From Escherichia coli (GTDB lineage: Bacteria; Pseudomonadota; Gammaproteobacteria; Enterobacterales; Enterobacteriaceae), in assembly GCF_041886205.1 (NCBI RefSeq), contig NZ_CP169029.1: a DNA stretch of 64,000 nucleotides. The stretch is one strand, 5' to 3'. The notes under the pieces are model-generated. The model had not been told where the DNA came from and ran no database searches. It saw only the letters and a list, made by a program, of their open reading frames with translations. Shown here in pieces: positions 6,032-52,765 of this stretch (within the stretch, counting starts at the first letter, position 1; the number at the start of each line of letters is the position of its first letter). A program made the translations under genes and the position numbers.

Positions 6032-6105
6032 GCGGGCGTAGTTCAATGGTAGAACGAGAGCTTCCCAAGCTCTATACGAGGGTTCGATTCCCTTCGCCCG
6101 CTCCA
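6032..6105 (+). tRNA. glyU: tRNA-Gly (anticodon CCC)
   Basis: 74-nt sequence GCGGGCGTAGTTCAATGGTAGAACGAGAGCTTCCCAAGCTCTATACGAGGGTTCGATTCCCTTCGCCCGCTCCA with cloverleaf pairing and CCC anticodon. Confidence 0.9.
6076..6105 (+). repeat. attL: 30-bp 3' end of glyU, duplicated at the distal island end
   Basis: acgagggttcgattcccttcgcccgctcca is identical to 19239-19268. Confidence 0.75.
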
Positions 6106-6107
6106 GT

Positions 6108-6137
6108 TTACTGATAAATAAGCATATTTTTATTTAT
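6108..6137. repeat. perfect 11-bp inverted repeat immediately 3' of glyU (tRNA terminator or integrase arm site)
   Basis: ctgataaataa-gcatattt-ttatttatcag. Confidence 0.4.
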
Positions 6138-6452
6138 CAGCTAGTTACTTAGCCCCGCTAATGCAGGTACAGTCGTAACTACACATTGCACAATCGCCGC
6201 GCCTGTCGCGTGGTTGGTGTGTGGTAGTCGGGAGCATATCACCGCGCTGGCAGTGGTTTCAACGTTCTTACTGCGACAGCCCAACAACGAACAAAAGCCG
6301 CCTGCCCGGCATAATCCCGAAGACTTTTAGTGAAGCGCATTTTAGCCCGATGCCCCCGTTCTGTCGCCGTCGCGAGACGCCGCAGGGGATAAACAGGTTT
6401 ATGGTGGTCACGGTACTTGCAGACCATATGCAAGCTCTGCCAGCGGTTCGGC

Positions 6453-6564
6453 CTCGCTCCCCTTGGGTACATGGTCATCCTGATAAACTTCACTAACTGA
6501 CATAACGCTGATAAAGTCGCCAGAGGCTCCGCTTGTCTCTTTACCACTAATGGGGCTTTATGGC
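6453..6564. repeat. copy 1 of a ~110-bp imperfect direct repeat (about 80% identical to 7003-7112)
   Basis: Shared blocks ctcgctcc..gggtacatg.tcat..tgataaa.ttcact..ctgacataac.ctgat..gtcgcc..ctccgc..accac.aa.ggggct. Confidence 0.5.
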
Positions 6565-6635
6565 TTCTATTGCCTTGATTTTTAATGTTTATGTTCTAGT
6601 CTGAATGTAACTTTGACACAGCAAGGAGTGAAAAA

Positions 6636-6914
6636 ATGTCTGATAATATGAAACGTTTCGAAGTTAAACGAGAAGGCATAGTTTACGGATATGTAGAAGA
6701 GGGTACATTTGAAACCCGGCGTTGGAATTTCGTCTACCCAATCGTAGATGGAAAGATATCTATGGACATTACGACCGTTAATATCCAAAAACAAGACGGA
6801 AAGACCCTTTTGGAATCACAAATCAAAAATATTGGTTTTGATGTCGATTTTGAAAAAAGAACCCTTACAAGAAATGATGGTACAGTTTTTGATTTAGTTG
6901 AAATCGATAGTTAA
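6636..6914 (+). CDS. hypothetical small protein (92 aa) bracketed by the two direct-repeat copies
   Basis: Strong RBS (aaggagtg) 7 bp upstream of ATG; hairpin downstream (ggcaggagt...actcctgcc at ~6940-6975); no recognisable domain. Confidence 0.5.
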   Translation: MSDNMKRFEVKREGIVYGYVEEGTFETRRWNFVYPIVDGKISMDITTVNIQKQDGKTLLESQIKNIGFDVDFEKRTLTRNDGTVFDLVEIDS

Positions 6915-7002
6915 TCATCACTAAAAGTCTTCACACTTGGGCAGGAGTACCCACCCCTTGGGAACTCCTGCCTGTATTCAAACCCGTTTCAAGTAGCTAC
7001 GT

Positions 7003-7112
7003 TCTCGCTCCTTCGGGTACATGATCATGATAAAATTCACTGTCTGACATAACCCTGATGCTGTCGCCTGACGACTCCGCGTGTTGTCTTACCACCAACG
7101 GGGCTATATGCG
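7003..7112. repeat. copy 2 of the ~110-bp imperfect direct repeat
   Basis: See 6453-6564. Confidence 0.5.
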
Positions 7113-7247
7113 CGCTTTGTTTAAATGGCCCCAATTTAAAGATTCACATGGGAAAGGCCTGCACTTCTGAAAACCCGCTTTCTCAAATTCAATTGAAAAC
7201 GGGTTAATATACTATTACTCAATTTTTTTTCTAAATAATAATCAGTC

Positions 7248-8387
7248 TTATTTGATTAAAGAGTAAATTCCATCTCTATCTAAAAAATCAATGACGTCGT
7301 AGTATGATATTGATAACTCCCACGATCCTAATGCATAGCATTGAATTTCGTACGGGCGGAAATGAAAAGTTAATCCTGAATCATGTATAGTAAAAATATC
7401 TAAACGGCTTTCTAAAATCCCCTTTACCATTTCAGCTAAAGTAGTGTCGTCCGGTTTTTGACCAGTCCTCTCCCAAAATACACGTGGAGCATCTGACATG
7501 AGTTTTTCTTTAATTTTTTTAATAGCATCTAAGTGGGTGCCTCGAATGAAAAGCTCAGATAGAGAAAATTTATATGCGTAGTCATTATCTGTAACCACAA
7601 AATTACTCACAGCAAAGTGGCTGTTTGGGTGTGCAGCGCCAGCGCCGTACCAGTCTACGTTATGTAAGATGCTTATAACATTTTTATTGCAATAAGCAAT
7701 ATAATACATTTCATTGTAATAGCTTGTGTACGTACTTTTATATTCTTCATGCCAGCCAAAATTGTGTGGCCAAGGCGACGTTCTGTTATCAAACACTAAG
7801 CTTGCTACACGGCCTGAAAAATAATTAGATATTATTTCTGCCGACTCTGGAAATAGTTGACTGCTTATTTTCGGGTAAGTTATTTCAAGCTCATGGCTAG
7901 GGATGGTGTTGTGATCTTCTTTATGTGTTAGGCTTATGAATGTAAAGCTGCCGTGTGTAACCCCGCTTGTTACTTCAAGGTTTTGTTGGGTTGCAGCCAG
8001 GTTTAATGATCTTTCTAAAATATCCCAGCCATCAGATCTTTTGTAGTCGATGTATTGGATTTTACTAGATATTAAGGATGGGACTTCGGCGTCGTCAATC
8101 AGCAGTGGGACTACGACGACATCATCTGGTTTATAATATTTTAACTTTTCAATGGCGTCATTTATTTCGCGCCTGATGTATCCATTTTTATTACAGCTAA
8201 CTTTGCTAAGTATTATTATGATAACATTTGCATTGTTAAAATTCTTTTGTATTTCATAATCCCAAATCACACCACCCGGAATATCTTTTATATCCATCCA
8301 CGGTTTATAGCCATTGTTTTTCAACTTTTCATAAATTGACTCGGTTATTTTTTCATCTTCTTTAGCGTGAGCCAAGAATATCTTCAT
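7248..8387 (-). CDS. TIR-domain protein with an unrecognised ~250-aa C-terminal domain (candidate antiphage effector or sensor)
   Basis: N-terminal MKIFLAHAKEDE...W...VIIIILSKVS...NGYIRREINDAIEK matches bacterial TIR motif spacing; AT-rich gene unlike neighbouring core. Confidence 0.7.
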   Translation of the reverse strand: MKIFLAHAKEDEKITESIYEKLKNNGYKPWMDIKDIPGGVIWDYEIQKNFNNANVIIIILSKVSCNKNGYIRREINDAIEKLKYYKPDDVVVVPLLIDDAEVPSLISSKIQYIDYKRSDGWDILERSLNLAATQQNLEVTSGVTHGSFTFISLTHKEDHNTIPSHELEITYPKISSQLFPESAEIISNYFSGRVASLVFDNRTSPWPHNFGWHEEYKSTYTSYYNEMYYIAYCNKNVISILHNVDWYGAGAAHPNSHFAVSNFVVTDNDYAYKFSLSELFIRGTHLDAIKKIKEKLMSDAPRVFWERTGQKPDDTTLAEMVKGILESRLDIFTIHDSGLTFHFRPYEIQCYALGSWELSISYYDVIDFLDRDGIYSLIK

Positions 8388-9080
8388 GTTTAATCCTCTA
8401 TGTGAATCACTCTATAAGGTTGATACTTGTGACATATAAAATGCATTTATTATATTGCAATAAGTAAGGTATCGATAGTCTGTGTTTTCTAAAGCCCAAT
8501 GCGTTGAGAGCAAAAGTTAGTGCTAAGATGAGTTAACTTTTTGACTATCAAAAGCGGTCTTTGAGAAGCAGTGACCCATAAATGTGATATCCGTGCTAGA
8601 TGTCTGAAAATTTCCTGCTTCAGGCCACATTTTACTCTTGGCTGTTAAGCAAACTGGGGAGTTTTATCTCGACTTGAAAAATTGCACGCTTATGGTTGCC
8701 CCTCCCTCAACGATTAAGGCTTCAACTTCCCCCGTGCGCCTCTCCCAGCCGAAGGCTGGGCGGGCTGTATATCGATTTGCCTTTCTCTGTGGCGTTTATG
8801 ACCCTGTTTCGCGTTCTGATCATGAGGCTGTGGGTTAGGGTTAATCTTCTCTTTAAACGCTAAATCACTCTTGACTCTCCGCTGTTAAAGCACTTTGCGT
8901 TGATGCTTGGCGCTTCTCTTGGCTGTCGTTATTGTTTTGGCTTCGGTGTCATCAATCGTTCGATTCTTGCTACCTGTCTGAGTGATTACTATCTGGTATC
9001 ATCAATTTAGGGTTTGACTAAATGCTACCACCAATGCAATGATGCTACCGTTTTGTGATACCAGACGGGTGAGGTGAACC

Positions 9081-9656
9081 ATGAGGACTTTTATCTACTG
9101 CCGCGTTTCAACACGCGAGCAGGATACGCAGAATCAGGTGCTGGCTATTGAGCGTGCCGGGTATAAGGTGCCGGAGAGCAGGGTAATCAGCGAGGACATT
9201 TCCGGCAGCGTTCAGGCTATGCAGCGCCCTAAGTTCCGGGCGATGGTTGAGCACAAGCTGGAAGCGGGAGATCAGCTTGTCGTGCTGAAACTGGACAGGC
9301 TGGGGCGTGACAACATCGATGTGCAGCAGACCATCGACATGCTGTTAGAACGCGGCGTGAAGGTGGTGTCTCTTGACCTGCCAGCGCGTGATCTGACTTC
9401 ATCTGAGGGCAAGCTAATCCGCCAGATGTTTGGAGCCTTTGCTGAGTTCGAGCGAAACCGTATCCGTGAGAGGACGCTGGACGGGCTGGAGAAGGCGAAA
9501 GCCAATGGCGTTAAGCTGGGACGCAAGGAAGCCACCGACACCACTCAAAAGGTGCAGGAGTTGCGGAGTGAGGGACTGTCTCAATCGAAGGTAGCGAAGC
9601 GTCTCGGCGTTAGCGTGAGCACCGTTAAACGCCACTGGAACAAGGGCGAGGGGTGA
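9081..9656 (+). CDS. small serine recombinase (resolvase/invertase family)
   Basis: N-terminal catalytic motif YCRVSTREQ, 191 aa, C-terminal HTH (GLSQSKVAKRLGVSVSTVKRH). Confidence 0.8.
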   Translation: MRTFIYCRVSTREQDTQNQVLAIERAGYKVPESRVISEDISGSVQAMQRPKFRAMVEHKLEAGDQLVVLKLDRLGRDNIDVQQTIDMLLERGVKVVSLDLPARDLTSSEGKLIRQMFGAFAEFERNRIRERTLDGLEKAKANGVKLGRKEATDTTQKVQELRSEGLSQSKVAKRLGVSVSTVKRHWNKGEG

Positions 9657-10737
9657 TGACCTACAAGCGAACGAGGTGCTACGACTGGCCGTTACTGGGC
9701 TGTGGGTGATGGATGACCTACAGTTTTTATATGGATATCAGGGTGTCATGTTATGCGTAATATCGTAATGATATGATTTATAATGTATTTTCGTATTACT
9801 TGCGGCTCTCGATGTGAAGAGGTGGCGGGGCTTTAGCCGTGCCAGACGATGAACATCGAGATCAGATTGTGAATGTGATTCATCACTGAACAATTCGGGG
9901 GATGGGGAGGGAAGGGGAGCAAGAGGTAATTGGTTACGTTCGGCGGCTGGGCTGAATCCTCTCTGTTCCCTGATTAACTTATTTCAGCGTACATGTGTAC
10001 ACTTAACTAATTATCTAGCCTCCCCTACTTACTTATCCTCCCCTCGGGAGGTACGCGCTGCACCTCGTTTACACGTCCCGTCCGCCTGCCGGAGACAGGG
10101 CTTCGCCCCTTCTCCAGACCTCTTCCCCTGCTGCGCTTCTCGCTCGCTTTGCTCTCTGTGATGCTCGGTGCTCATCGCTGCCACGCTTGCCGCACTGGCT
10201 AGGTGGCGGGGGTATACAGTGACACGACATTAACCATAGTTATTTGCACTTTACTGGTAATGGCACTGTATTCTCCATGCCATCTTCACTGTCTGCCGCC
10301 TGCCATTCTTTAGGATTCCATCCCTTAACATTCCGCGCTCGCTCTGCATATCTGGCGACACATTATCAAAATGTATCTTTCATAATTTTATAATCAATAC
10401 AATGAATTACATCTTTAATATTTAAAGGCTACTAATAAGGAAAGCTGGAACATACCTTTCCTGCTTTTAAACCTACGTGAATTGTTTTGTTAACTCCTCT
10501 CGGCCTAGACGCAACAAGGCTTTACCGGGCGTTGCAATCAGTTAAACCGCTAGAAAGCGGCTACTGTGGCAAGACGAACACCACTCGCTTGTGCATCCGT
10601 AGTTACCTACATGAGAGTGACTGCTAAGGATAGGCGGAACATTGTCACCAACACCGACAACGAAACCTCCACTACGGGAATGCAACCAATTCCCTGCGGA
10701 GCCTTTCAAATCCAAACCATTTACTGGAGTCTGTACA

Positions 10738-12582
10738 ATGCCAACAATTTTAGAGCGGCTGCTGGCGCATGCCGACAGGGCTGATGTGCTCAATGTGGGG
10801 TGCGCGGATGCTCAACAATTAATTGCAGATAAGGTTGTTATTCCCCGTTCCAAGTTGTGTCCTGTCAGTGGTAAGCCCGTTAAAGCTGTGTTTAATACTG
10901 AGCAGAACGTATTTTATTTTCACGCTGATGGTTCGGTTATGACTTTCCGCGAATGGAAAATCATAAACGGGATTGGCCGCAAGATACACGCCCGACGCGC
11001 TGATGCTGGGCTTCGTCAGGTTATTCAGCCCGGTGATGCAACTCACTGCCGACGCGCTGAGATTGAGCAGTGGCTGGACAAGAAGCCTGCTCGTTATGTT
11101 GACCCGCTGCCGCCAGACTTCCCCGGCGTTCGTGTCGATGACGCTGCACTTAAACCGCGTGAACACTCCATTCCAGAATCGACAACCGGGCAGAATGCTT
11201 TTCTCAAAGCCTGCCGCGAGTTCCTGATTTGTGATGAGAAGACCATGCACCGTATCAACAGGGGCATGAATAAACTGGAAGCGATGCGCAATACAGATTT
11301 CAAACGCTACGGGGACTCAGCGGAGTTTCGTCAATTGTGGTGTGGAGAGTCGAAACCTGCCGAGGATAAATTTAACAGTACAAATCATCATTGTGACCCG
11401 AACGGCTTGGCTGCATTGCCGTCTGTGCCGTCACTGAATACTGCGCCGTATGAGTTCCGCCCGCTGGCTCGCTGTGACCGAAACGCACGCGTTAGCCTGC
11501 TGCCACCTGATGGGCTGGAGTGGAGGCCGGGGCAGTTGTCTGTTGCTGATGTGATCTTTTCCCGTGGTGGTGATGTGCTGGCCGTTCTTCCCACGGGTTA
11601 TGGCAAAAGTGCTGCCTTCACTTACCCATTGATTTATGAGTCCCGTGCTGGCGTTGGTCTGTCTGTAATCGTTGTTCCTACTAATACCCTTAAACGCCAG
11701 ATTCTCCGACAGTTGCGGGAAGCGGGCGTTCACGCAGTGGCCTTTGGCGATAAGCTACCGAAGCACCGCAACGCGCAACAACTGGCGGGGCTGGCTGCCG
11801 GGGCGTTCCGTGTTGCTGTTGTTTCGCCTGAACATCTGGTTCCGTCGAATCAGGTTTTCGCGGCGCTGATGGCTTACGGTGTTGATCGTTTTATCATCGA
11901 CGAAGCGCACACGGTTAAAGACTGGGATTTTCGGCCTGCTTACGAGGCAATGCAGCACTCGCTACAACATGCCTTTCCTTCGGCTCAGCGCTGCGTGTTT
12001 ACGGCTACGCTACTACGTGAAAATGAGCGCGGTTTAATGGAGTCGCTGGGATGCCGTGGCGATTACGTCACATTCCGTGCTGATGTTGCTCGCGAGAATA
12101 TCCAGTTGATTCCGGTCAGGCAGTGCCGCCAGCGATACCGCGCGGCTGTTGGTCTGGTCGAGGCTCTGCCGAAGGAAGAGAAGACCCTCATTCTCGTCAA
12201 TGACCTTAAGACCTTGCGGGCGTACCTGAAACTCTTAGGCGACCGGGCGCGGCCATATCACTCGAAGACGATGCACCTGAGTAACGAAGAACGCCACGCA
12301 AACGCTGAGTGGTTTGCCACTACGCCGGGCGCAATTCTGGTTGCGACTAAAGCTTTCGGACTGGGGGCTGATGTTCCCGATATCCGTAACGTTATCGTGA
12401 CTTACATTCCTGATGACCTGCCTGATCTCGTTCAGATGATTGGACGAGCCGGGCGCGATGGTCAACCTGCCCGCGCGTTTCTGCTGTGGTCATCTCTGGC
12501 GCTGGATGCTGCGCCTGATGAGCTTGCTTACTTCTACCGCGCTGAAAACTGCAACTGGGATTACATCTCCCGCTTCCTCTGA
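10738..12582 (+). CDS. RecQ-family SF2 DNA helicase fused to a novel ~270-aa N-terminal domain
   Basis: LPTGYGKS (motif I), FIIDEAHTVKDWDFRPAY (DEAH, RecQ-like), IGRAGRDGQPA (motif VI); start chosen at MPTILER with RBS; the ORF-track start at 10642 is less likely. Confidence 0.75.
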   Translation: MPTILERLLAHADRADVLNVGCADAQQLIADKVVIPRSKLCPVSGKPVKAVFNTEQNVFYFHADGSVMTFREWKIINGIGRKIHARRADAGLRQVIQPGDATHCRRAEIEQWLDKKPARYVDPLPPDFPGVRVDDAALKPREHSIPESTTGQNAFLKACREFLICDEKTMHRINRGMNKLEAMRNTDFKRYGDSAEFRQLWCGESKPAEDKFNSTNHHCDPNGLAALPSVPSLNTAPYEFRPLARCDRNARVSLLPPDGLEWRPGQLSVADVIFSRGGDVLAVLPTGYGKSAAFTYPLIYESRAGVGLSVIVVPTNTLKRQILRQLREAGVHAVAFGDKLPKHRNAQQLAGLAAGAFRVAVVSPEHLVPSNQVFAALMAYGVDRFIIDEAHTVKDWDFRPAYEAMQHSLQHAFPSAQRCVFTATLLRENERGLMESLGCRGDYVTFRADVARENIQLIPVRQCRQRYRAAVGLVEALPKEEKTLILVNDLKTLRAYLKLLGDRARPYHSKTMHLSNEERHANAEWFATTPGAILVATKAFGLGADVPDIRNVIVTYIPDDLPDLVQMIGRAGRDGQPARAFLLWSSLALDAAPDELAYFYRAENCNWDYISRFL

Positions 12583-12627
12583 GTTAACTGGCTCGCCTGT
12601 TTAAATTCTTTTCTGGAGAAAATTTGT

Positions 12628-13062
12628 ATGCCTGATGAAACCGCGCTGCATCGCGCGGGGCGTTCTGACGCCCTGATTAATGCACAACTCGCCTTTGCCC
12701 TGAACGGGTATTCATTTGACGGACTGGCGTCACGCCATGTTCACGCTCTTAATCGTGAGGCCATATTGCGCCGGGTAAGCTCGCCACTACAGCGGTATTG
12801 CCTGCTGAATGATTGCGAGCCGTGGGAATGCATCGCGGCGGTGTTGAACAGATTCCGACGCCGGGAGGATGGCTCTCGCGTTTGGCCGACCTACCGCATG
12901 GCTCGCGAGATATTTAACGGAACTGTTCACCCGGATATTAAGACGCGCGATGAGATATTCCAGTCTGTACAACGCCGCCTCTTTTTACCAAAACCAGTAC
13001 ACGCCGAAGTAATTCAGTATCTGCGCGTAATGGGGCTGATAGGAGTTAATCCGCATGACTAA
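12628..13062 (+). CDS. hypothetical protein (144 aa), first of a run of overlapping small ORFs
   Basis: ORF with RBS; stop overlaps next start. Confidence 0.45.
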   Translation: MPDETALHRAGRSDALINAQLAFALNGYSFDGLASRHVHALNREAILRRVSSPLQRYCLLNDCEPWECIAAVLNRFRRREDGSRVWPTYRMAREIFNGTVHPDIKTRDEIFQSVQRRLFLPKPVHAEVIQYLRVMGLIGVNPHD

Positions 13063-13261
13063 AACCGAGTTTGAAAATGAAACGTGGCGGATGAAAGGCT
13101 TGCTCCTTGGAGCGCTAATTCGCCGCCTTGAGGAAGACAAGGTTGGTGAGTCGCGCATGGCCGCAGCGGAGTTATCCAGTGCGGTCAACTTCCTTAAGGC
13201 CAATGCCGTAGAAGCGCCGGACACGTCATTTAACCGTGTATTTGAGGATGACGAGCAATGA
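13055..13261 (+). CDS. hypothetical protein (68 aa)
   Basis: Overlapping start/stop with neighbours. Confidence 0.4.
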   Translation: MTKTEFENETWRMKGLLLGALIRRLEEDKVGESRMAAAELSSAVNFLKANAVEAPDTSFNRVFEDDEQ

Positions 13262-13434
13262 CACCCGCAGAGTTTAGAGCTTGGTTTGCAACCCTGCCGC
13301 CGAACTATCAGAGCGCAGCACGAGCCATGTATGAAAGCGCCCGCAAGACGGGAACACATACCGCTTCCAGCCTGTTACTCATTCGCTCGCTGATTGAAGA
13401 TCAAATCAATTTCGATGGAGATTTTACTCTATGA
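13258..13434 (+). CDS. hypothetical protein (58 aa; below the ORF-track size cut-off)
   Basis: ATG overlaps upstream stop (caATGAcac); translates to MTPAEFRAWFATLPPNYQ...; stop overlaps the next ATG (ctATGAgag). Confidence 0.35.
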   Translation: MTPAEFRAWFATLPPNYQSAARAMYESARKTGTHTASSLLLIRSLIEDQINFDGDFTL

Positions 13435-13994
13435 GAGTTTTAAACCTGACCGATATTCAGCGCATTAATACCCTTGTGAAGCGCGACCTTCTCAATGTGG
13501 AGGAGGTTGTCGCTGCAACCGGATTCGACCCGGTAGATGTGGACGCGGTGCTGAGAGGCGTCTATGTCGCCGATCTTGCCAGCCAGTGGAAGGACGACGC
13601 CGCTATCTCACTGGAGGAATACAACGCTATCCGTAAGCGCTGGAAACCGGGGCGCGGTCACTGGGACACTGCACACGCCATTGCACGCGATTTTCTAATC
13701 CGGCCTGAAACGGTATTAGCTATCGCCCATTCCCGCTTTAGCAATGCCCAAACGCACCCGATGCCGAAAGCTGTTAAAGCGAAGCCTGAGAAGCCGCAGA
13801 CGATGCGCCGCCTGTCTGGCGCTGATCTTGACGAGGCGCACAAGCTGGAGCGCTTTGGCTGGCCTGTTGCTGAGATTGCCGGAAAGCTTGAAATTCCAGT
13901 CGAAGCGGCTGCTCAAGCGCTGCGCCTGATGCGTAATCGCTGGAGCTATCCCGATATTTTAGAAGACGTTAACGCGCGATACGGGGCTAAGTGA
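13431..13994 (+). CDS. hypothetical protein (187 aa)
   Basis: ORF in coupled operon. Confidence 0.45.
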   Translation: MRVLNLTDIQRINTLVKRDLLNVEEVVAATGFDPVDVDAVLRGVYVADLASQWKDDAAISLEEYNAIRKRWKPGRGHWDTAHAIARDFLIRPETVLAIAHSRFSNAQTHPMPKAVKAKPEKPQTMRRLSGADLDEAHKLERFGWPVAEIAGKLEIPVEAAAQALRLMRNRWSYPDILEDVNARYGAK

Positions 13995-14230
13995 TGGCAG
14001 AGCATAACGAACCACTGCATCCCGCAGTTAACCCTGATCTCTATGTGAATCTTGATGAACAACGCGAGGGATACGCGCCGATTGAATCACGGGGCTGGGG
14101 TGTGTTGACGCAGAACCTGACCGGGGAAGGGCGAACCGACTCCAGCCAAACGCTTAACCAGAATCGAAGACAACGCCCGCGCGGCTCTGTTGGTGAACGC
14201 CGTTGGCTTCGCAGGCATGGGTTACTTTAA
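13991..14230 (+). CDS. hypothetical protein (79 aa)
   Basis: ATGA overlap with upstream gene. Confidence 0.35.
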   Translation: MMAEHNEPLHPAVNPDLYVNLDEQREGYAPIESRGWGVLTQNLTGEGRTDSSQTLNQNRRQRPRGSVGERRWLRRHGLL

Positions 14231-14242
14231 CGAGGAATTACC

Positions 14243-14482
14243 ATGAGCAAAACCATTGTACTGTTGCCGCCCCGAAAGAATACCGACTGGGCTGCACAAT
14301 TAAAGCTGATTTCTGAATCGCTTGAGGTGAGTCAGGCAGACCTTGCCCGCGCCTATCAGGTTGACCGTCAGGATATGGGGAAAGCGTATCACGGTGTACG
14401 CAAACTGCCGGAGCGATGTGTGCCTGTTCATATGCTGTTGTTAGCGCAGGTTCACGACTTTAGAGCATTATCAGGAGAATAA
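14243..14482 (+). CDS. hypothetical protein (79 aa), possible helix-turn-helix
   Basis: GAGGAA RBS; segment SQADLARAYQVDRQDMGKAYHG resembles an HTH. Confidence 0.4.
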   Translation: MSKTIVLLPPRKNTDWAAQLKLISESLEVSQADLARAYQVDRQDMGKAYHGVRKLPERCVPVHMLLLAQVHDFRALSGE

Positions 14483-14485
14483 TTT

Positions 14486-15166
14486 ATGTCTGATCAGAAT
14501 GTTAATCCGTACCTTTCCGGTGGTGATGCTGCACCGCAGCAATCGCCATACATGGCCGCACCAGTGGGCGCTGACAATGGCGCATCTCGCTTTAGCGCTG
14601 AGCCTGCTGATGCTGATTTCCTCCGTACCCAGCCCGTTAACGGCAATGATGGCGGCCAATGGAATAATAGCAATATTGCTAATCAGCAAGACCGGAACAC
14701 TGACAGCGCCGAGGCGCAGGTGGGCGATACTATCCCCCTGATGGATGGAACAGCTATTGAGTACACCGCCGAGCTACAAGGTTTAATGGGGCAGTTTCAC
14801 CAGTCCATAGAAAGCCAGCTAGGGCAGGGTACAGTTGACGCTATGTTGCAGTACGCTGGCACGCTCGATGCCGGGACTCAATCAACCCTTGAACGGATGG
14901 TTATGTCTGGCGACCCTGCACAGATGCAGCGGGCGGTTCAGTATCTGCAAGAGCGTATGGCTGGCGGTTCCATTACCGGTTACGTCCCGAACGGCCAGAC
15001 CGCCGCGCAACCTGTCGGAATGTCTCATGCTGAGTTTATTGCAGCGTATGACCAGCTTTCGCAGTGGGCACAGCAATCAGGGTATGGCCCCGGCCATCGT
15101 CAGTACGACGAGCAATACCGCGCTCTGGTTGCGCAGCGCTCCGCTGGCAAACGTGCTGGCCGCTAA
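14486..15166 (+). CDS. hypothetical protein (226 aa) with low-complexity N-terminus
   Basis: AGGAGA RBS; ORF. Confidence 0.45.
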   Translation: MSDQNVNPYLSGGDAAPQQSPYMAAPVGADNGASRFSAEPADADFLRTQPVNGNDGGQWNNSNIANQQDRNTDSAEAQVGDTIPLMDGTAIEYTAELQGLMGQFHQSIESQLGQGTVDAMLQYAGTLDAGTQSTLERMVMSGDPAQMQRAVQYLQERMAGGSITGYVPNGQTAAQPVGMSHAEFIAAYDQLSQWAQQSGYGPGHRQYDEQYRALVAQRSAGKRAGR

Positions 15167-15325
15167 GCAATCGCCCGTCCTGTCTTCTCCGCGTCTTAAC
15201 CTTACGTTTTAGAGCCTGAATCGCGTTGTACATCGCCAGATGTGTATTCGTACACCTGCGCCTGTAAAACGCGAAATTACCTCTCAAACACCACACATAA
15301 ACCCACTTTGCATTGAGATCTGACA

Positions 15326-15673
15326 ATGACCTTACTGACACCTGAAAACGTGGCAGCGGCTAGGGCTGCCCGTAGTGCGAGGATTGAACACTGGAAAGCC
15401 AACGCCAGCCAGCTTAAACAGGACTTTGCTGACGAAGCGCACTGGCGGCGGCTCGCCTCACTCTACGGCGTGCGTATGCCCTCGGCGTATGTTCCCGGCT
15501 CTGAGCTGCGATTGTTGCGCAGGGCGGCCAAACGCGCGGGCATCTCTGGTGCTGACATGCGCGATGCTTTCGGTGGAGGCGTTGCGCACCTGCACGAGCT
15601 TAATCCCCACTGGCCTGCTTTCGCGCTTATCGGCCTGATTCTTGAGATCGCGGCTGAAAAAGCTGCTGCCTGA
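15326..15673 (+). CDS. hypothetical protein (115 aa)
   Basis: ORF. Confidence 0.4.
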   Translation: MTLLTPENVAAARAARSARIEHWKANASQLKQDFADEAHWRRLASLYGVRMPSAYVPGSELRLLRRAAKRAGISGADMRDAFGGGVAHLHELNPHWPAFALIGLILEIAAEKAAA

Positions 15674-15740
15674 CCCGTCACATTCTCTTTTCCCATTTCT
15701 ATAAATCGCGCTGGCTATAGCTGGCGCGGGAGCTATTCCT

Positions 15741-16553
15741 ATGACTGACAATGTTTATACCCCTGATCAATTCCGCCCGCACTGGGGCGGTGTAGGTGCT
15801 GACAACGACATTCACATTGAAGCGTATGACCGGGACGTTCAGACCCGTCTTGAGGCAAAGAGCGTCTTTCTGGCCGAGGGGCTGAGCACATACAAGCCGC
15901 TGAAAGCCAGCAACCATTACCGCATTGATCGCCTGAGTGGTGATCTTGAGGTGAAGGGCAGAACCTCAGGGCAATCGCTGGAGCCTACCGCTGTTAAGTC
16001 GGACAAGCTGATTATCTCTGTGGATACGCTGAGTTATATCCGCATCCCGATTGATTATCAGGATGACTGGACTGCACCCACCTTTCGCGCAGAGCTGAGC
16101 CGCAATATCGGCACTGCGCACGCTAAGTTCTACGACGAAGCGCACACCATCCAGTTAATCAAAGCGACTGACTTTGTACCGCCGCCGACACTGCAACCAA
16201 CGTTTAACCCGCTTACCGGGCAATGCACCCAGCTTACAGAGAGGATAAATAAGATGATAACCACGATTAAGCTGAGGTGGCGGTACATCGAGCCGCCGCC
16301 AATGACTGGCGCACTTGCTGACCTGAAACAATGGGTAATTGATGCCGGAGAGCCTGAGCTTGAAGATGAATTTCGTAAGCTGCTGGGGCTGATGCGTCGC
16401 AATGGTATCAGTGATGAACGTGTTAAGGCGATTGCTGATGAGCTTTATGCTCTGGTATGCCAACGCCAGCGCGAAGAATACGAAGCCTGCAAGCGGGCTG
16501 CCTCTGACAATGGAGACTTTGAATCATGGTTACACGGACAGACCAACTACTAA
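15741..16553 (+). CDS. hypothetical protein (270 aa)
   Basis: ORF; no recognisable domain. Confidence 0.5.
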   Translation: MTDNVYTPDQFRPHWGGVGADNDIHIEAYDRDVQTRLEAKSVFLAEGLSTYKPLKASNHYRIDRLSGDLEVKGRTSGQSLEPTAVKSDKLIISVDTLSYIRIPIDYQDDWTAPTFRAELSRNIGTAHAKFYDEAHTIQLIKATDFVPPPTLQPTFNPLTGQCTQLTERINKMITTIKLRWRYIEPPPMTGALADLKQWVIDAGEPELEDEFRKLLGLMRRNGISDERVKAIADELYALVCQRQREEYEACKRAASDNGDFESWLHGQTNY

Positions 16554-16561
16554 GAAAAGTG

Positions 16562-16954
16562 ATGCGGGGCTATTTGGAACACCTCGGCAATATACCGCTG
16601 GCGGAACGGATTACAAACGCTGCTGCATTCGAAGATGTTTATCGCTTCCTGTTGAATGGTTCCGGGCGGCTGGAGCTGCGCCGTGCTGACGTGGCTGCTG
16701 TCCGTGTCTTCTTGTGGAATTATCAGTACCGTCGCTGTGCGGTGACAGGTAAGCCGCTGCGCCTTGCGTCTGCCGTGCTGGATCACTGCCACCGAACCGG
16801 GCGCGTGCGTGCTGTGGTGCATCGTTCTGCTAATGCTGCCGAGGGCGGCTATCACGTAGGGCGTTTGTGCGGTATGTCCCCAACCAGCATGGGGGCGATG
16901 CTGAGTTGCTATCGCCAGCAATATAAAGGACTCGGCATTATTTATCCGAAATGA
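16562..16954 (+). CDS. possible endonuclease VII / HNH-like protein
   Basis: C..TG...(x)LDHCHRTGRVR segment resembles the recombination endonuclease VII motif (CxxC...DHxHxTGxxRG); weak. Confidence 0.35.
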   Translation: MRGYLEHLGNIPLAERITNAAAFEDVYRFLLNGSGRLELRRADVAAVRVFLWNYQYRRCAVTGKPLRLASAVLDHCHRTGRVRAVVHRSANAAEGGYHVGRLCGMSPTSMGAMLSCYRQQYKGLGIIYPK

Positions 16955-16996
16955 CGGGGCTACTATGCCCCGTATTTTAACTGGCGGGAGGTGTTA

Positions 16997-17914
16997 TCAA
17001 ACAGGAATATTCAAGTAAGCGCAGATTGCATTAGTCAGCAGAGCCGGAGCTACCGCACCCGCAATTTTGAGGCTGCCAGAGTAAGCTTTGCCTATCATAG
17101 CTCCGACCCAGTTACCAATTTCCCCTCCAAGATTATTTGATGATGTGGGGGCTGGGGACTGCTCTATTGCTTGTTTCAACGTCTTAATGTCGCTGTCTTC
17201 AATGCCATATTCTTTTAGTTGACGCTCAAGAGTATTGAAGTCACCAGCTGTTATGGAATTTTGCTGATTAATATCCCCAGTGTTTCCAGCACCAATTGCA
17301 CCAGAGTTGTTAACATTTCCGTTGAAATTATTAATGTTATTTACTGTCATACCTGCCGCCTCTTTCTTTTCTTCGAGAGAAAATAACAACCCTTCACCGA
17401 GTATCCCTTTTCTTTCAAGTAATAAAGCCCAGTCGAGAATCCTTGAGCGAGTATTTGAAAGTATTTTGGTTATCTGTGTGGGGTTAATGCTATATGCCAT
17501 CCGAAAATCGCAGTCGCCCATTTCCTGCAAGAAGTCAGCCAGAAAAGATGGGAGGTCACTATATAGTGTGCTGTCCCGTTTCGCGTACTCAATCAACATT
17601 GATACAGGATTGTTTATGTGAACAGTTGTTAAGGTATCGTAGATATCTTGATGCTTTTCCTGTGTATTACTTAGTTGATATGGAATCCAACCGACATATG
17701 GATTGAACGCTCGAATCGGAACATTTCTGAGAACTCTGTAGTCGGGAAGTAGATCATGTGATGGATAGCCGTTTAATTCATGCTCAAGCCACTCAGATAT
17801 ATCCTTTAGGTCTAGTTTGACTGAGATCATTTTTGCTCGTGCCAATAGCTCCTCAATATCGGTTGAGCTTGAGCTAGCCATTTCTTGTAACTTAAGGACG
17901 GGAGAATTGTTCAT
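16997..17914 (-). CDS. AbiTii-like abortive-infection protein candidate with Gly/Asn-rich linker and hydrophobic C-terminus
   Basis: N-terminal ELLARAKMISVKLDLKDISEWLEHELNGYP resembles the AbiTii N-terminal region; AT-rich; directly downstream of the integrase. Confidence 0.45.
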   Translation of the reverse strand: MNNSPVLKLQEMASSSSTDIEELLARAKMISVKLDLKDISEWLEHELNGYPSHDLLPDYRVLRNVPIRAFNPYVGWIPYQLSNTQEKHQDIYDTLTTVHINNPVSMLIEYAKRDSTLYSDLPSFLADFLQEMGDCDFRMAYSINPTQITKILSNTRSRILDWALLLERKGILGEGLLFSLEEKKEAAGMTVNNINNFNGNVNNSGAIGAGNTGDINQQNSITAGDFNTLERQLKEYGIEDSDIKTLKQAIEQSPAPTSSNNLGGEIGNWVGAMIGKAYSGSLKIAGAVAPALLTNAICAYLNIPV

Positions 17915-17934
17915 TGAAGCCCCTCAAAAGTTTT

Positions 17935-19152
17935 TCAGCATGTTATCGCATCATATTTGACTAACTCAACATGTCTCGATAACTCTTGCATCCCAGCTCC
18001 CTTGCTGTATGTCCTGAATGCTTCAGTTTTGGCCTTTTGTTCGGTGTGCCCTGTGATTGCACCTATCCGCTGTTCTGGTACGCCAGCCCTATCTAAGCAG
18101 GTGATGAAGTGACCGCGCAGTGAATGGAAGCATTGGCGATCTGTAGCCGCTGGCAGCACGCGACGGCGTAGCCGTGTGAATGCCTGAGAATACCACGGGC
18201 CGCGCTTACCATCGGCGCGTTTAATCTTGTTTGATTGGGGCAGTAGGTATTCCCCGTTGTTCTGCGAAAGGTATTTATCAACGATGCTAATTAATAGCGA
18301 GTGTATGGGGACGTGCCTTACGCCCGCTTTAGTTTTAGATTTGCTGACGTAGAAGCACCGTATCCCTTCAACTGTGACGATCTCATCTCGTTTGATGCTG
18401 GCGATTTCGTCGAGACGCATACCGGAATACAAGCCGATTATGATTACGTCGCGCACCTCGCCACCTGCCTCTTTTATTAATGCCTGTAGTTGGTGAGGCT
18501 CAAACGGCTGGTAACTTTCAATGGTGCGGCGGGCTTCCAGATTGTGGCCGTGGAACGGGTTGCTGTCCGGTATCTGATCGTAACGTCTCTTGGCGAACTC
18601 ATAAAGACTGCCCAAGGAGGTTAACCAGTTTTGCACAGTCTGCGGAGCTGCATCACTTTGCTGCTGGGTATCAACGAACTCTGAAACGAGCCGCCGCCCA
18701 ACTTTATCTAAGGTGATATCTGTCTTCTTGATGCTTTGGAGAAATACCTCTACCGCTCTGGCCGACTTGCTCAATGTAGAGAATGTTCGGCGCTCGCTAT
18801 ACACCGCCATGTACTCATCACGGATAGCGGACAGCTTGGGAATCATTGTTGAAACATGTGTAGTTTCGGGTGATTTATTGCTGGCCTGTTTTAATAAAAT
18901 TTGCAGGGAGCTAAGCGTGTTCTGGATTCTAATATCTTCGCGCTCAGGATTTAGTAATGTCTTGATGTTATTGAACTCAATCAGCATGTGGTTGCGAAAA
19001 TGCCGAGCCTTTACGATGTCCCTAGTTCCCGTGGATTTGCGCCAAGCCCGTTTATTGCCAAACAGATGGCGCATGTATTTTGGGACAAAGATTTGAAATA
19101 TCCAGACGCCGTTATGGCTTTGAAAAAGATACTGATTGTGCTTGATAGGCAT
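17935..19152 (-). CDS. tyrosine-type site-specific integrase
   Basis: 405 aa; C-terminal catalytic residues (R...HSLRGHF...Y); adjacent to attR. Confidence 0.85.
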   Translation of the reverse strand: MPIKHNQYLFQSHNGVWIFQIFVPKYMRHLFGNKRAWRKSTGTRDIVKARHFRNHMLIEFNNIKTLLNPEREDIRIQNTLSSLQILLKQASNKSPETTHVSTMIPKLSAIRDEYMAVYSERRTFSTLSKSARAVEVFLQSIKKTDITLDKVGRRLVSEFVDTQQQSDAAPQTVQNWLTSLGSLYEFAKRRYDQIPDSNPFHGHNLEARRTIESYQPFEPHQLQALIKEAGGEVRDVIIIGLYSGMRLDEIASIKRDEIVTVEGIRCFYVSKSKTKAGVRHVPIHSLLISIVDKYLSQNNGEYLLPQSNKIKRADGKRGPWYSQAFTRLRRRVLPAATDRQCFHSLRGHFITCLDRAGVPEQRIGAITGHTEQKAKTEAFRTYSKGAGMQELSRHVELVKYDAITC

Positions 19153-19238
19153 AGCTTTTTGTCCTATAAAAGCACGCTATCAGGTACAGCCATTTGTACA
19201 ATGTTGGGATGGGTAAGCAAGTTTCCGACTTGTTTTAA

Positions 19239-47802: not shown

Positions 47803-48834
47803 TTAGTCGCTGGTTGCATGATGACTTGCCTCCAGCGACGGAGTTGACACTGAATGACGACGTACCAGCGTCGGACTAAAGACATTAGTGATTTCCGGGA
47901 GAGGGCGATTATCCGCCAGCGCCAAAGCCAGTTCGGCAGCCTGGGTCGCCATCGTCACGATTGGGTAACGCACGGTGGTCAGGCGCGGACGCACATAGCG
48001 TGACACCAGCACATCATCAAAGCCAATTAACGAAATCTCACCCGGTACATCAATACCATTATCATTGAGAACGCCCATCGCACCCGCCGCCATTGAATCG
48101 TTATAACAGGCTACCGCAGTGAAATTTCTTCCTCGTCCCAAAAGCTCGGTCATTGCCTGTTCGCCGCCGCTTTCGTCTGGTTCGCCAAATGTCACCAGCC
48201 GGTCATTGGCCGCAATACCACTTTCAGCAAGGGCATCGTAATACCCTTGCAGACGATCTTCGGCGTCAGAAATAGAGTGGTTAGAGCACAGATAACCAAT
48301 GCGGGTATGACCTTGCTGAATTAAATGACGCGTTGCCAGCCAGGCACCGTAACGATCGTCAAGAGCAATACAACGGTTTTCAAAGCCAGGCAGGATACGG
48401 TTGATCAGCACCATACCGGGCATTTGTTTCATTAATGAGGCTAAATCGGCATCCGGGATCATTTTGGCATGGACGACCAACGCAGCACAGCGATGGCGGA
48501 TCAGTTGCTCAATAGCCTGACGCTCTTTTTGTTCGTTGTGGTAACCGTTGCCAATCAATAAGAAATTACCGGTGTGATAAGCCACCTGTTCGACCGCTTT
48601 CACCATTGCACCGAAAAACGGATCGGAAACATCACCAACGATCAGACCGACCGTTTCAGTGGTCTGCTGCGCCAGCGCACGGGCGTTGGCGTTCGGGTGA
48701 TAGCTAAGAGACTCCATTGCACTATGCACAGCCAGCCGGGAAGCTTCACTGGCTTTAGGTGAATTATTAATGACGCGGGAAACGGTGGCGACTGAAACGC
48801 CTGCCAGTCGGGCTACATCCTTTATGGTCGCCAT
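47803..48834 (-). CDS. galR: galactose operon repressor (LacI family)
   Basis: N-terminal MATIKDVARLAGVSVATVSRV HTH; 343 aa. Confidence 0.9.
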   Translation of the reverse strand: MATIKDVARLAGVSVATVSRVINNSPKASEASRLAVHSAMESLSYHPNANARALAQQTTETVGLIVGDVSDPFFGAMVKAVEQVAYHTGNFLLIGNGYHNEQKERQAIEQLIRHRCAALVVHAKMIPDADLASLMKQMPGMVLINRILPGFENRCIALDDRYGAWLATRHLIQQGHTRIGYLCSNHSISDAEDRLQGYYDALAESGIAANDRLVTFGEPDESGGEQAMTELLGRGRNFTAVACYNDSMAAGAMGVLNDNGIDVPGEISLIGFDDVLVSRYVRPRLTTVRYPIVTMATQAAELALALADNRPLPEITNVFSPTLVRRHSVSTPSLEASHHATSD

Positions 48835-49047
48835 GAAAATACCTTAGTGGGTAAACGCTTACATTCTTTCAGTGTTACGGAAAACGCCCGTTGGTTCAAG
48901 GGGTGGCGTGTTTTCATCGTGGGAATGTGAGCCAAACGCAAATAAGTAAGACAAAAAAAGAGATTGCAAACCTTTGGTTACACTTTGCGAAACGCTGTTG
49001 CGATTGACCGCTGGTGGCGTTTGGCTTCAGGTTGCTAAAGTGGTGAT

Positions 49048-49130
49048 CCCAGAGGTATTGATAGGTGAAGTCAACTTCGGGTTGAGCACATGAATTACAC
49101 CAGCCTGCGCAGATGCGCAGGTTTTTTTTT
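49048..49130 (+). ncRNA. omrB: OmrB small regulatory RNA
   Basis: cccagaggtattgataggtgaag...gcgcagatgcgcag hairpin plus T9; shares 5' and 3' ends with OmrA. Confidence 0.8.
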
Positions 49131-49243
49131 GCCGGTCATCAATCTGTAACAGTAACCGACAATTTACACACCTCGTTGCATTTCCCTTCATTCCTTTGCG
49201 TTTTCTCGCTGGCGAAGAGTCGTCGTGCAGACCACAATCAAGA

Positions 49244-49331
49244 TCCCAGAGGTATTGATTGGTGAGATTATTCGGTACGCTCTTCGTACCCTGTCTCTTG
49301 CACCAACCTGCGCGGATGCGCAGGTTTTTTT
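49244..49331 (+). ncRNA. omrA: OmrA small regulatory RNA
   Basis: cccagaggtattgattggtgagattattcgg...gcgcggatgcgcag hairpin plus T-run. Confidence 0.8.
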
Positions 49332-49398
49332 TCGCACCTAATTTACTGTCGCTCGCGTTCTTTATCTCGTGTAATCTCCCTCCATTCGCTTTTACTGA

Positions 49399-52765
<3,367 letters not shown>

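What the first reader, a model, noticed from the sequence alone, without database searches (positions are those of the whole stretch)
49048..49331. Tandem OmrB and OmrA sRNAs upstream of aas
Two paralogous sRNAs with nearly identical 5' seed (cccagaggtattgat) and identical terminator hairpins sit in the galR-aas intergenic region. Known regulators of outer-membrane protein mRNAs, included for completeness.
Basis: established knowledge. Interest (0 to 1): 0.2.

Follow-up and report, generated by a model that had tools for sequence, protein, structure and literature searches.

The report
Known OmrB and OmrA small RNAs
The interval holds the two well-studied E. coli regulatory small RNAs OmrB and OmrA, base-for-base identical to those of strain K-12, so the finding is correct but ordinary.

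Summary
Window 49048-49129 (+) is omrB and 49245-49332 (+) is omrA. Both are full-length Rfam RF00079 matches (86.1 and 96.6 bits; threshold 40). Both are 100% identical to the curated K-12 genes b4445 and b4444. They lie between galR (-) and aas (+), as in K-12.

The whole 585-bp intergenic region equals K-12 except for one extra T after the omrB terminator. It is present in 5,423 of 5,426 complete E. coli genomes.

Across 50 homologues from about 30 Enterobacterales genomes, the 5' 20 nt and the 3' terminator are conserved and the middle is free to vary. Three terminator base pairs show compensatory changes.

Published promoter features are all present: the omrB box with T-75/A-68, omrB -12T, and omrA -13C/-12C (sigma-S discriminator).

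The single-stranded 5' end is complementary to ompT, cirA and ompR mRNAs at the experimentally mapped sites.

Novelty: none. In passing, a 13-kb integrase-bearing island carrying TIR and AbiTii genes lies at tRNA-Gly (6106-19268), and no complete E. coli genome covers it well.

The parts
47803..48834 (-). galR, divergent upstream neighbour (343 aa)
   Evidence: ORF. NCBIfam GalR equivalog NF008002 scores 734.5 bits against a cut-off of 557. Same position as in K-12.
48969..49005 (+). omrB promoter upstream boxes: GTTACACTTTGC at -71 (48977-48988; published box B2 with OmpR/RstA-type site, T-75 = 48973, A-68 = 48980) and TGTTGCGATT at -52 (48996-49005)
   Evidence: The bases at -75 and -68 match the residues mutated in PMC13425233. 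Both boxes are conserved at the same distance in 15 omrB-type promoters and in chimeric single-copy loci. OmpR or RstA binding itself was not tested here.
49033..49041 (+). omrB -10 region TGcTAAAGT (hexamer 49036-49041, -12T; TG at -15/-14)
   Evidence: Read from the sequence. -12T is present in 13 of 15 aligned omrB-type promoters. The literature links -12T to sigma-70 use (PMC12692685).
49048..49129 (+). omrB sRNA gene (82 nt; the T-run continues to 49130)
   Evidence: Rfam RF00079 at 86.1 bits, full length. 100% identical to K-12 b4445. Fold: free 5' end plus terminator, z = -2.9. Terminator at 49102-49123.
49144..49238 (+). omrA promoter: conserved CTGTAACAG (49144-49152, about -100), GTTGCATTT (-70), and -10 hexamer CACAAT (49233-49238) with -13C/-12C
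   Evidence: Read from the sequence. CCACAAT is present in 12 of 16 omrA-type promoters and the boxes are conserved. The literature names -12C as the sigma-S specificity determinant of omrA (PMC12692685).
49245..49332 (+). omrA sRNA gene (88 nt)
   Evidence: Rfam RF00079 at 96.6 bits, full length. 100% identical to K-12 b4444. Fold: nt 1-15 unpaired, internal hairpin, terminator, z = -2.7. Terminator at 49305-49326.
49420..51579 (+). aas, downstream neighbour (719 aa), followed by lplT at 51572-52765
   Evidence: NCBIfam Aas equivalog at 1528.8 bits (cut-off 886) and LplT at 578.9 bits (cut-off 297). Synteny with aas is kept in all loci examined.

Best explanation
The interval contains two separate genes for paralogous, Hfq-dependent, trans-acting small RNAs: omrB (49048-49129) and omrA (49245-49332). 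Each has its own promoter and its own Rho-independent terminator. [quoted passage not shown] The omrA -10 element (CACAAT, -13C/-12C) makes it dependent on sigma-S (stationary phase). The omrB element (TGcTAAAGT, -12T) is read by sigma-70 and, per a 2026 paper, responds to RstA in multicopy. Each RNA starts with the same unpaired 5' end, CCCAGAGGUAUUGAU. This end base-pairs with short complementary stretches at or near the ribosome-binding site of many mRNAs (ompT, cirA, fecA, fepA, ompR, csgD, flhD, dgcM, btuB, flgM and others). Pairing blocks translation and promotes RNase E decay. The 3' hairpin with its U-tail terminates transcription and is the Hfq-binding module. Because ompR is itself a target, the pair forms a negative feedback loop on its own activator. 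SHOWN HERE: sequence identity to the characterised genes, family membership, structure and covariation, presence and conservation of the promoter elements, and complementarity at the published target sites. INFERRED from the literature on identical sequences: expression, OmpR, sigma-S and Hfq dependence, and target repression.
For: Rfam RF00079 gives 96.6 and 86.1 bits against a threshold of 40, both full length. Both copies are 100% identical to K-12 omrA and omrB. The 585-bp galR-aas spacer is identical to K-12 except for one T. It is found in 5,423 of 5,426 complete E. coli genomes, and 5,405 of them cover at least 80% of it. The seed occurs twice against 0.09 expected. Terminator-like hairpins with T-runs occur only on the + strand. 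The predicted folds leave the 5' end free. In other Enterobacterales, 48 homologues pass the Rfam threshold, while 12 unrelated loci with chance seed matches give none. In the 50-sequence alignment, nt 1-15 and 17-20, the CACC, and the terminator are conserved. The middle varies, with lengths from 75 to 110 nt that are not multiples of 3. The terminator helix is 100% paired, with compensatory changes at 3 of 8 pairs; slid controls give 18-54% paired. The promoter bases T-75, A-68, omrB -12T and omrA -12C are as published and conserved across genera. The best predicted duplexes put sRNA nt 1-9 on ompT +12..+20, cirA about -19..-10 and ompR about -18..-10. These are the sites proven by compensatory mutations in PMC2588501.
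Against: There are no expression data for this strain. The simple sigma-70 consensus scan found neither sRNA promoter; this is expected for activator-dependent promoters with poor -35 elements, but it means the promoters were located from the literature and not independently. Duplex energies alone barely separate the real targets from random 100-nt window segments: the background fraction is 0.02-0.05 for ompT, 0.02-0.11 for ompR and about 0.4 for cirA. Invariance of nt 1-15 across species is partly due to ascertainment, because the loci were found with that 15-mer. RefSeq/PGAP records do not annotate these genes.
Confidence: 0.97

Rival explanations
1. The two hairpin-plus-T-run elements act mainly in cis, as attenuators or a leader for aas-lplT. 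On this reading the 'sRNAs' are prematurely terminated aas leader transcripts, and read-through couples aas expression to OmpR and sigma-S.
For: Same strand as aas, only 87 nt upstream. Synteny with aas is kept in every locus examined, including Pantoea, where copy 2 stays next to aas. A 2026 preprint also remarks on this conserved synteny.
Against: The spacer between omrA and aas holds its own conserved -10-like element, CTCGTGTAATCT at 49366-49377, in Enterobacteriaceae, so aas probably has its own promoter. Both terminators are strong: 9-bp stems, 6 G-C pairs and 8-9 T. The conserved part is the 5' seed, which pairs with unlinked mRNAs. Trans-action is shown experimentally (PMC2588501).
Confidence: 0.03
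2. The region encodes small proteins: the mechanical ORFs at 48974-49093, 49113-49265, 49225-49341 or 49259-49495 on +, or 49027-49191 and 49188-49337 on -.
For: Such ORFs of 38-78 codons are listed.
Against: The conservation pattern is not that of a coding region. The ends are invariant, while the middle is hypervariable with indels that are not multiples of three (lengths 75-110 nt). Substitutions in the hairpin are compensatory. The ORFs run across promoter and terminator boundaries.
Confidence: 0.005
3. A chance repeat or a generic intergenic repeat element (REP or IS remnant) with no RNA function.
For: None beyond the fact that it is a two-copy repeat.
Against: The seed is expected 0.09 times and seen twice. 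It has a single fixed chromosomal location across genera. Rfam E-values are 1e-15 to 1e-18.
Confidence: 0.001

Closest known systems
OmrA (RygA, b4444) and OmrB (RygB, b4445) of E. coli K-12; Rfam RF00079
   Same: Every base of both transcripts, both promoters, their order, spacing, strand and flanking genes.
   Different: Only one extra T in the T-run after the omrB terminator: 9 here against 8 in K-12. Many other E. coli genomes match the whole intergenic region, this T-run included, at 100%.
Chimeric or single-copy Omr loci of other Enterobacterales (described in PMC13425233)
   Same: Same seed, same terminator and same neighbourhood next to aas.
   Different: Those loci have one gene: either an omrB-type promoter fused to an omrA-like body (Lelliottia, Superficieibacter, Serratia silvae) or, in my sample, an omrA-type promoter only (Siccibacter colletis, Serratia bockelmannii, Dickeya oryzae). 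The window has the full two-gene arrangement.
Other enterobacterial envelope sRNAs that pair through their 5' end (RybB, MicF, MicC)
   Same: Hfq-dependent, with 5'-end seed pairing near the translation start of outer-membrane protein mRNAs, under envelope-stress regulators (discussed in PMC2588501).
   Different: Unrelated sequences and different regulators (sigma-E for RybB). They are single genes, not a tandem paralogous pair. Not compared by sequence here.

Membership tests
OmrA-B sRNA family (Rfam RF00079) | Covariance-model score at or above the curated gathering score (40 bits), full-length match | tested here: met
   96.6 bits (49245-49332) and 86.1 bits (49048-49129), model positions 1-87 of 87, not truncated.
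OmrA-B sRNA family (Rfam RF00079) | Conserved unpaired 5' end CCCAGAGGUAUUGAU(N)GGUGA used as the seed | tested here: met
   Identical in both copies except position 16. Invariant in 50 homologues; nt 1-15 are partly ascertained, nt 17-20 are not. Unpaired in the predicted OmrA fold and largely unpaired in the OmrB fold.
OmrA-B sRNA family (Rfam RF00079) | 3' Rho-independent terminator (G+C hairpin plus U-tail), the usual Hfq-binding module | tested here: met
   9-bp stems with 6 G-C pairs, followed by 8-9 T. The helix is 100% paired across 46 distinct sequences, with compensatory changes at 3 pairs.
OmrA-B sRNA family (Rfam RF00079) | Location in the galR-aas intergenic region, same strand as aas | tested here: met
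   GalR and Aas are identified by NCBIfam equivalogs. Layout is identical to K-12.
OmrA-B sRNA family (Rfam RF00079) | Sequence identity to the experimentally characterised K-12 genes | tested here: met
   82/82 and 88/88 identical.
OmrA-B sRNA family (Rfam RF00079) | OmpR-dependent transcription; sigma-S dependence of omrA only | not testable with these tools
   Only the cis elements could be checked: T-75 and A-68 in PomrB, -12T (omrB) and -12C (omrA) are present and conserved.
OmrA-B sRNA family (Rfam RF00079) | Base-pairing with target mRNAs (ompT, cirA, ompR) through the 5' end | tested here: inconclusive
   The best duplexes fall exactly on the published sites. However, the energies are only marginally better than background for ompT and ompR, and no better for cirA. 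K-12 target sequences were used because the targets lie outside the window.
OmrA-B sRNA family (Rfam RF00079) | Hfq binding and RNase E-dependent target decay | not testable with these tools
   Known for the identical K-12 RNAs (PMC2588501, PMC6443205).

The most novel reading that the evidence does not exclude
The conserved adjacency of omrA to aas-lplT is functional: some read-through of the omrA terminator, or shared control by upstream OmpR and sigma-S sites, would couple lysophospholipid recycling to the same envelope-stress signals that induce the sRNAs. This would fit the 2026 preprint's report that the Omr RNAs repress fabA and accBC. My data neither show nor exclude it. A conserved -10-like element between omrA and aas argues that aas has its own promoter.
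Probability: 0.08. Interest if true: 0.35.

Novelty: already known. Interest (0 to 1): 0.08.

Why it matters
For the scan, it matters only as a correct positive control. A reader without tools recognised two textbook sRNAs, and the tools confirm them to the base. Biologically, OmrA and OmrB link EnvZ-OmpR, sigma-S and possibly RstA signalling to outer-membrane composition, iron uptake, motility and biofilm formation. All of that is established for identical sequences in K-12. A practical point: the RefSeq/PGAP record checked here lists no gene in this spacer, so sRNAs like these are easily missed in annotation-based analyses.

Tried and rejected
(1) The simple sigma-70 promoter scan of 48700-49500 found neither sRNA promoter and only one weak site inside galR. 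I therefore placed the promoters from published positions and from cross-species conservation.

(2) Duplex-energy statistics were meant as a stand-alone test of targeting. The sites are right, but the energies are not convincingly better than random window segments or shuffled seeds for cirA. The computation supports the location of pairing, not its significance.

(3) Folding the minus strand gives equally low z-scores, so folding energy cannot assign the strand. The T-runs after the hairpins and the Rfam strand do.

Twelve of these, used as negative controls, gave no Rfam hit. Copy-number statistics from this sample are therefore illustrative, not a census.

(5) Small-ORF and cis-attenuator readings were considered and rejected (see rivals).

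(7) A megablast of the glyU island against the phage collection found nothing.

Full report
OBSERVATION. The sequence at 49048-49332 was read directly. The 15-mer CCCAGAGGTATTGAT occurs exactly twice in the 64-kb window, at 49048 and 49245 on the + strand; 0.09 matches are expected by chance even with two mismatches allowed. Each copy ends in a G+C-rich hairpin followed by a T-run, at 49102-49123 and 49305-49326. The omrA 3' end is 49332, not 49331. The quoted 15-mer is exactly identical, and the wider 21-nt block differs only at position 16. The hairpins differ in one loop base (AGAT versus GGAT) and in the base preceding the stem. The T-run after omrB is 9 T here and 8 in K-12.

IDENTITY. 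A scan of the whole window against Rfam 15 at gathering thresholds gave three hits. Two are full-length OmrA-B (RF00079) matches at 49245-49332 (96.6 bits) and 49048-49129 (86.1 bits), against a threshold of 40. The third is a tRNA at 6032-6102. The K-12 MG1655 record annotates omrA (b4444, 88 nt) and omrB (b4445, 82 nt) between aas and galR. Alignment shows copy 1 = omrB and copy 2 = omrA, both 100% identical, and the two paralogues share 59 of 88 aligned columns. The complete 585-bp galR-aas spacer equals K-12 apart from the extra T. It matches in 5,423 of 5,426 complete E. coli genomes, and 5,405 of them cover at least 80% of it. The flanking ORFs are GalR, Aas, LplT and LysA by NCBIfam equivalog models, all well above their cut-offs.

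STRUCTURE AND CONSERVATION. Predicted folds have a free 5' end, a variable internal hairpin and the terminator (z = -2.9 and -2.7). The opposite strand folds about as well, so strand assignment rests on the T-runs and on Rfam, not on energy.

It included 32 Enterobacterales loci. Thirty-one of these gave OmrA-B hits above threshold, 48 hits in all; the remaining locus is cut off at its end. Twelve unrelated loci with chance seed matches gave no hit.

In the 50-sequence alignment, nt 1-15, GGUG at 17-20, the UU and CACC just before the terminator, and the terminator itself are conserved. The middle is hypervariable, with lengths of 75-110 nt. Invariance of nt 1-15 is partly ascertainment. Even so, in every two-copy locus both copies carry the exact seed, although one would have been enough for the locus to be found.

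The 8-bp terminator helix is paired in 100% of cells, with full compensatory changes at three pairs (U-A to C-G, G-C to A-U, C-G to U-A). Sliding the partner columns drops pairing to 18-54%. The GGUG/CACC helix never varies and so says nothing either way.

PROMOTERS. The generic sigma-70 scan missed both promoters, which is common for activator-dependent promoters. I therefore used published positions. The review PMC12692685 reports that omrA has -12C, which confers sigma-S dependence, and omrB has -12T. The window has CACAAT at 49233-49238 (-13C, -12C) and TGcTAAAGT at 49033-49041 (-12T).

PMC13425233 reports that the mutations T-75C and A-68G in box B2 of PomrB abolish activation by multicopy RstAB and strongly reduce activation by OmpR. 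The window has T at 48973 (-75) and A at 48980 (-68), inside GTTACACTTTGC.

Across genera, omrB-type promoters keep GTTACACTTTGC at -71, TGTTGCGATT at -52 and -12T in 13 of 15. omrA-type promoters keep TGTAACA near -100, GTTGCAYTT at -70 and CCACAAT in 12 of 16. This independently reproduces the paper's statement that the two promoters have different conserved boxes.

MECHANISM. Guillier and Gottesman (PMC2588501) showed by compensatory mutations that the OmrA/B 5' end pairs with cirA at -10 to -19, with ompT at +12 to +20 and with ompR just upstream of the AUG. A 4-nt seed mutation also abolishes fepA and fecA control.

I fetched the K-12 target leaders and computed optimal duplexes with nt 1-21 of the window's RNAs. 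The cores fall on exactly those sites. The energies are only modestly better than 3,000 random 100-nt window segments: background fraction 0.02-0.05 for ompT, 0.02-0.11 for ompR and about 0.4 for cirA. The calculation therefore supports where pairing occurs, not that it is statistically exceptional. This is consistent with the paper's own emphasis on short stretches of complementarity.

Expression, dependence on OmpR, sigma-S and Hfq, and repression of targets are inferred from work on identical sequences. They were not tested here.

RIVALS. A cis-attenuator or leader role for aas is suggested only by the conserved synteny, which a 2026 preprint also notes. A conserved -10-like element, CTCGTGTAATCT at 49366-49377, lies between omrA and aas, and both terminators are strong. 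Small-ORF coding is contradicted by the conservation pattern and the compensatory changes. Chance is excluded.

COMPARISON AND NOVELTY. This is OmrB and OmrA themselves: already known. The cross-species sample shows the known variants. Chimeric single genes (omrB-type promoter with an omrA-like body) occur in Lelliottia, Superficieibacter, Enterobacter sp. BIGb0383 and Serratia silvae. These are consistent with deletion by recombination between the identical 5' ends, which is my inference.

In my sample, three single-copy loci show an omrA-type upstream motif and no B2 box within 3 kb upstream. In Siccibacter colletis the TGTAACA box and the CCACAAT -10 are also present. There is no second hit even at E <= 1, and a galR-sized ORF (347 aa, not further identified) starts 277 nt upstream. 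In Serratia bockelmannii the -10 region is identical to copy 2 of S. grimesii. In Dickeya oryzae the call rests only on the -70 motif, which differs from the omrB box by a single base, so it is weak. This differs mildly from the generalisation in PMC13425233 that the omrB promoter is always retained.

In Pantoea the two copies are 2 kb apart, with a class-B penicillin-binding protein gene between them.

SIDE OBSERVATIONS. Between tRNA-Gly(CCC) (6032-6105) and the low-G+C type III secretion island (about 19.4-39 kb) lies a 13.2-kb element. It is bounded by a 33-nt direct repeat of the tRNA 3' end, at 6073-6105 and 19236-19268. It encodes:
- a tyrosine integrase and a resolvase;
- a DpdF-like helicase;
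- a truncated major-head-protein homologue and an endonuclease VII-like protein;
- two defence-type genes, a TIR_2 + DUF3298 protein and an AbiTii protein.
No complete E. coli genome covers 80% of window 6000-30999; the best is 76% coverage at 96% identity. The island has no megablast match among phage records.

VERDICT. The feature is already known; interest is low (0.08).

Noticed in passing
window 6106-19268 (att repeats 6073-6105 and 19236-19268): A 13.2-kb integrative element at tRNA-Gly(CCC), bounded by a 33-nt direct repeat of the tRNA 3' end (32/33 identical). It encodes an integrase (17935-19152, -), AbiTii (16997-17914, -), a TIR_2+DUF3298 protein (7248-8387, -), a resolvase (9081-9656), a DpdF-like helicase (10642-12582; PADLOC 1e-269), a truncated major head protein homologue (15741-16553) and an endonuclease VII-like protein (16526-16954). 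It looks like a phage-satellite-like island carrying anti-phage cargo. No complete E. coli genome covers 80% or more of window 6000-30999 (best 76% at 96%), and the phage collection gives no match.
   Followed up: partly
window about 19400-39000: A low-G+C (31-38%) block. At least its part within 19.4-31 kb matches type III secretion genes (PrgH/EprH, EscU, EscJ, SctT and others) at 99.9-100% in many E. coli genomes. This is the ETT2 island. From K-12 coordinates I recalled rather than looked up, tRNA-Gly lies about 20 kb further from omrB here (43 kb) than in K-12, where ETT2 is truncated; about 13 kb of that excess is the glyU element above.
   Followed up: partly
window 49366-49377: A conserved CTCGTGTAATCT (TGTAAT = -10-like, 5/6 to consensus) lies between the omrA terminator and the aas start codon and is kept across Enterobacteriaceae. 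It is probably the aas promoter.
   Followed up: partly
window 49122-49130: The T-run after the omrB terminator is 9 T here against 8 in K-12 MG1655. This is the only difference in the whole galR-aas spacer. Many other E. coli genomes, including an O157:H7 strain, match the whole spacer at 100%.
   Followed up: yes
L002 (NZ_CP025849.1) and the annotated-feature column: The RefSeq/PGAP record checked here lists no feature between galR and aas although the spacer is 100% identical. Of the records checked, only the curated K-12 record annotates omrA and omrB.
   Followed up: yes
L080 4050-4132 (Siccibacter colletis); L033 12514-12606 (Serratia bockelmannii); L049 2533-2622 (Dickeya oryzae): Single-copy Omr loci with an omrA-type upstream motif and no omrB-type B2 box within 3 kb upstream. 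Siccibacter also has TGTAACA at -100 and a CCACAAT -10. The Dickeya call rests on one motif only. This contrasts with the statement in PMC13425233 that the omrB promoter is always retained.
   Followed up: partly
L030 2747-4879 (Pantoea stewartii); also L059 and L076/L077: In Pantoea the two OmrA-B copies are about 2 kb apart instead of about 200 bp. In L030, a class-B penicillin-binding protein gene (PBP_dimer + Transpeptidase, 2936-4675) lies between them, and copy 2 stays next to the aas-like and lplT-like genes.
   Followed up: partly
window 49144-49152: CTGTAACAG, a short inverted repeat (CTGT-A-ACAG) about 100 bp upstream of omrA, is conserved in most Enterobacteriaceae omrA promoters. 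It is one of the published conserved boxes, and no regulator is assigned to it in the papers read here.
   Followed up: no
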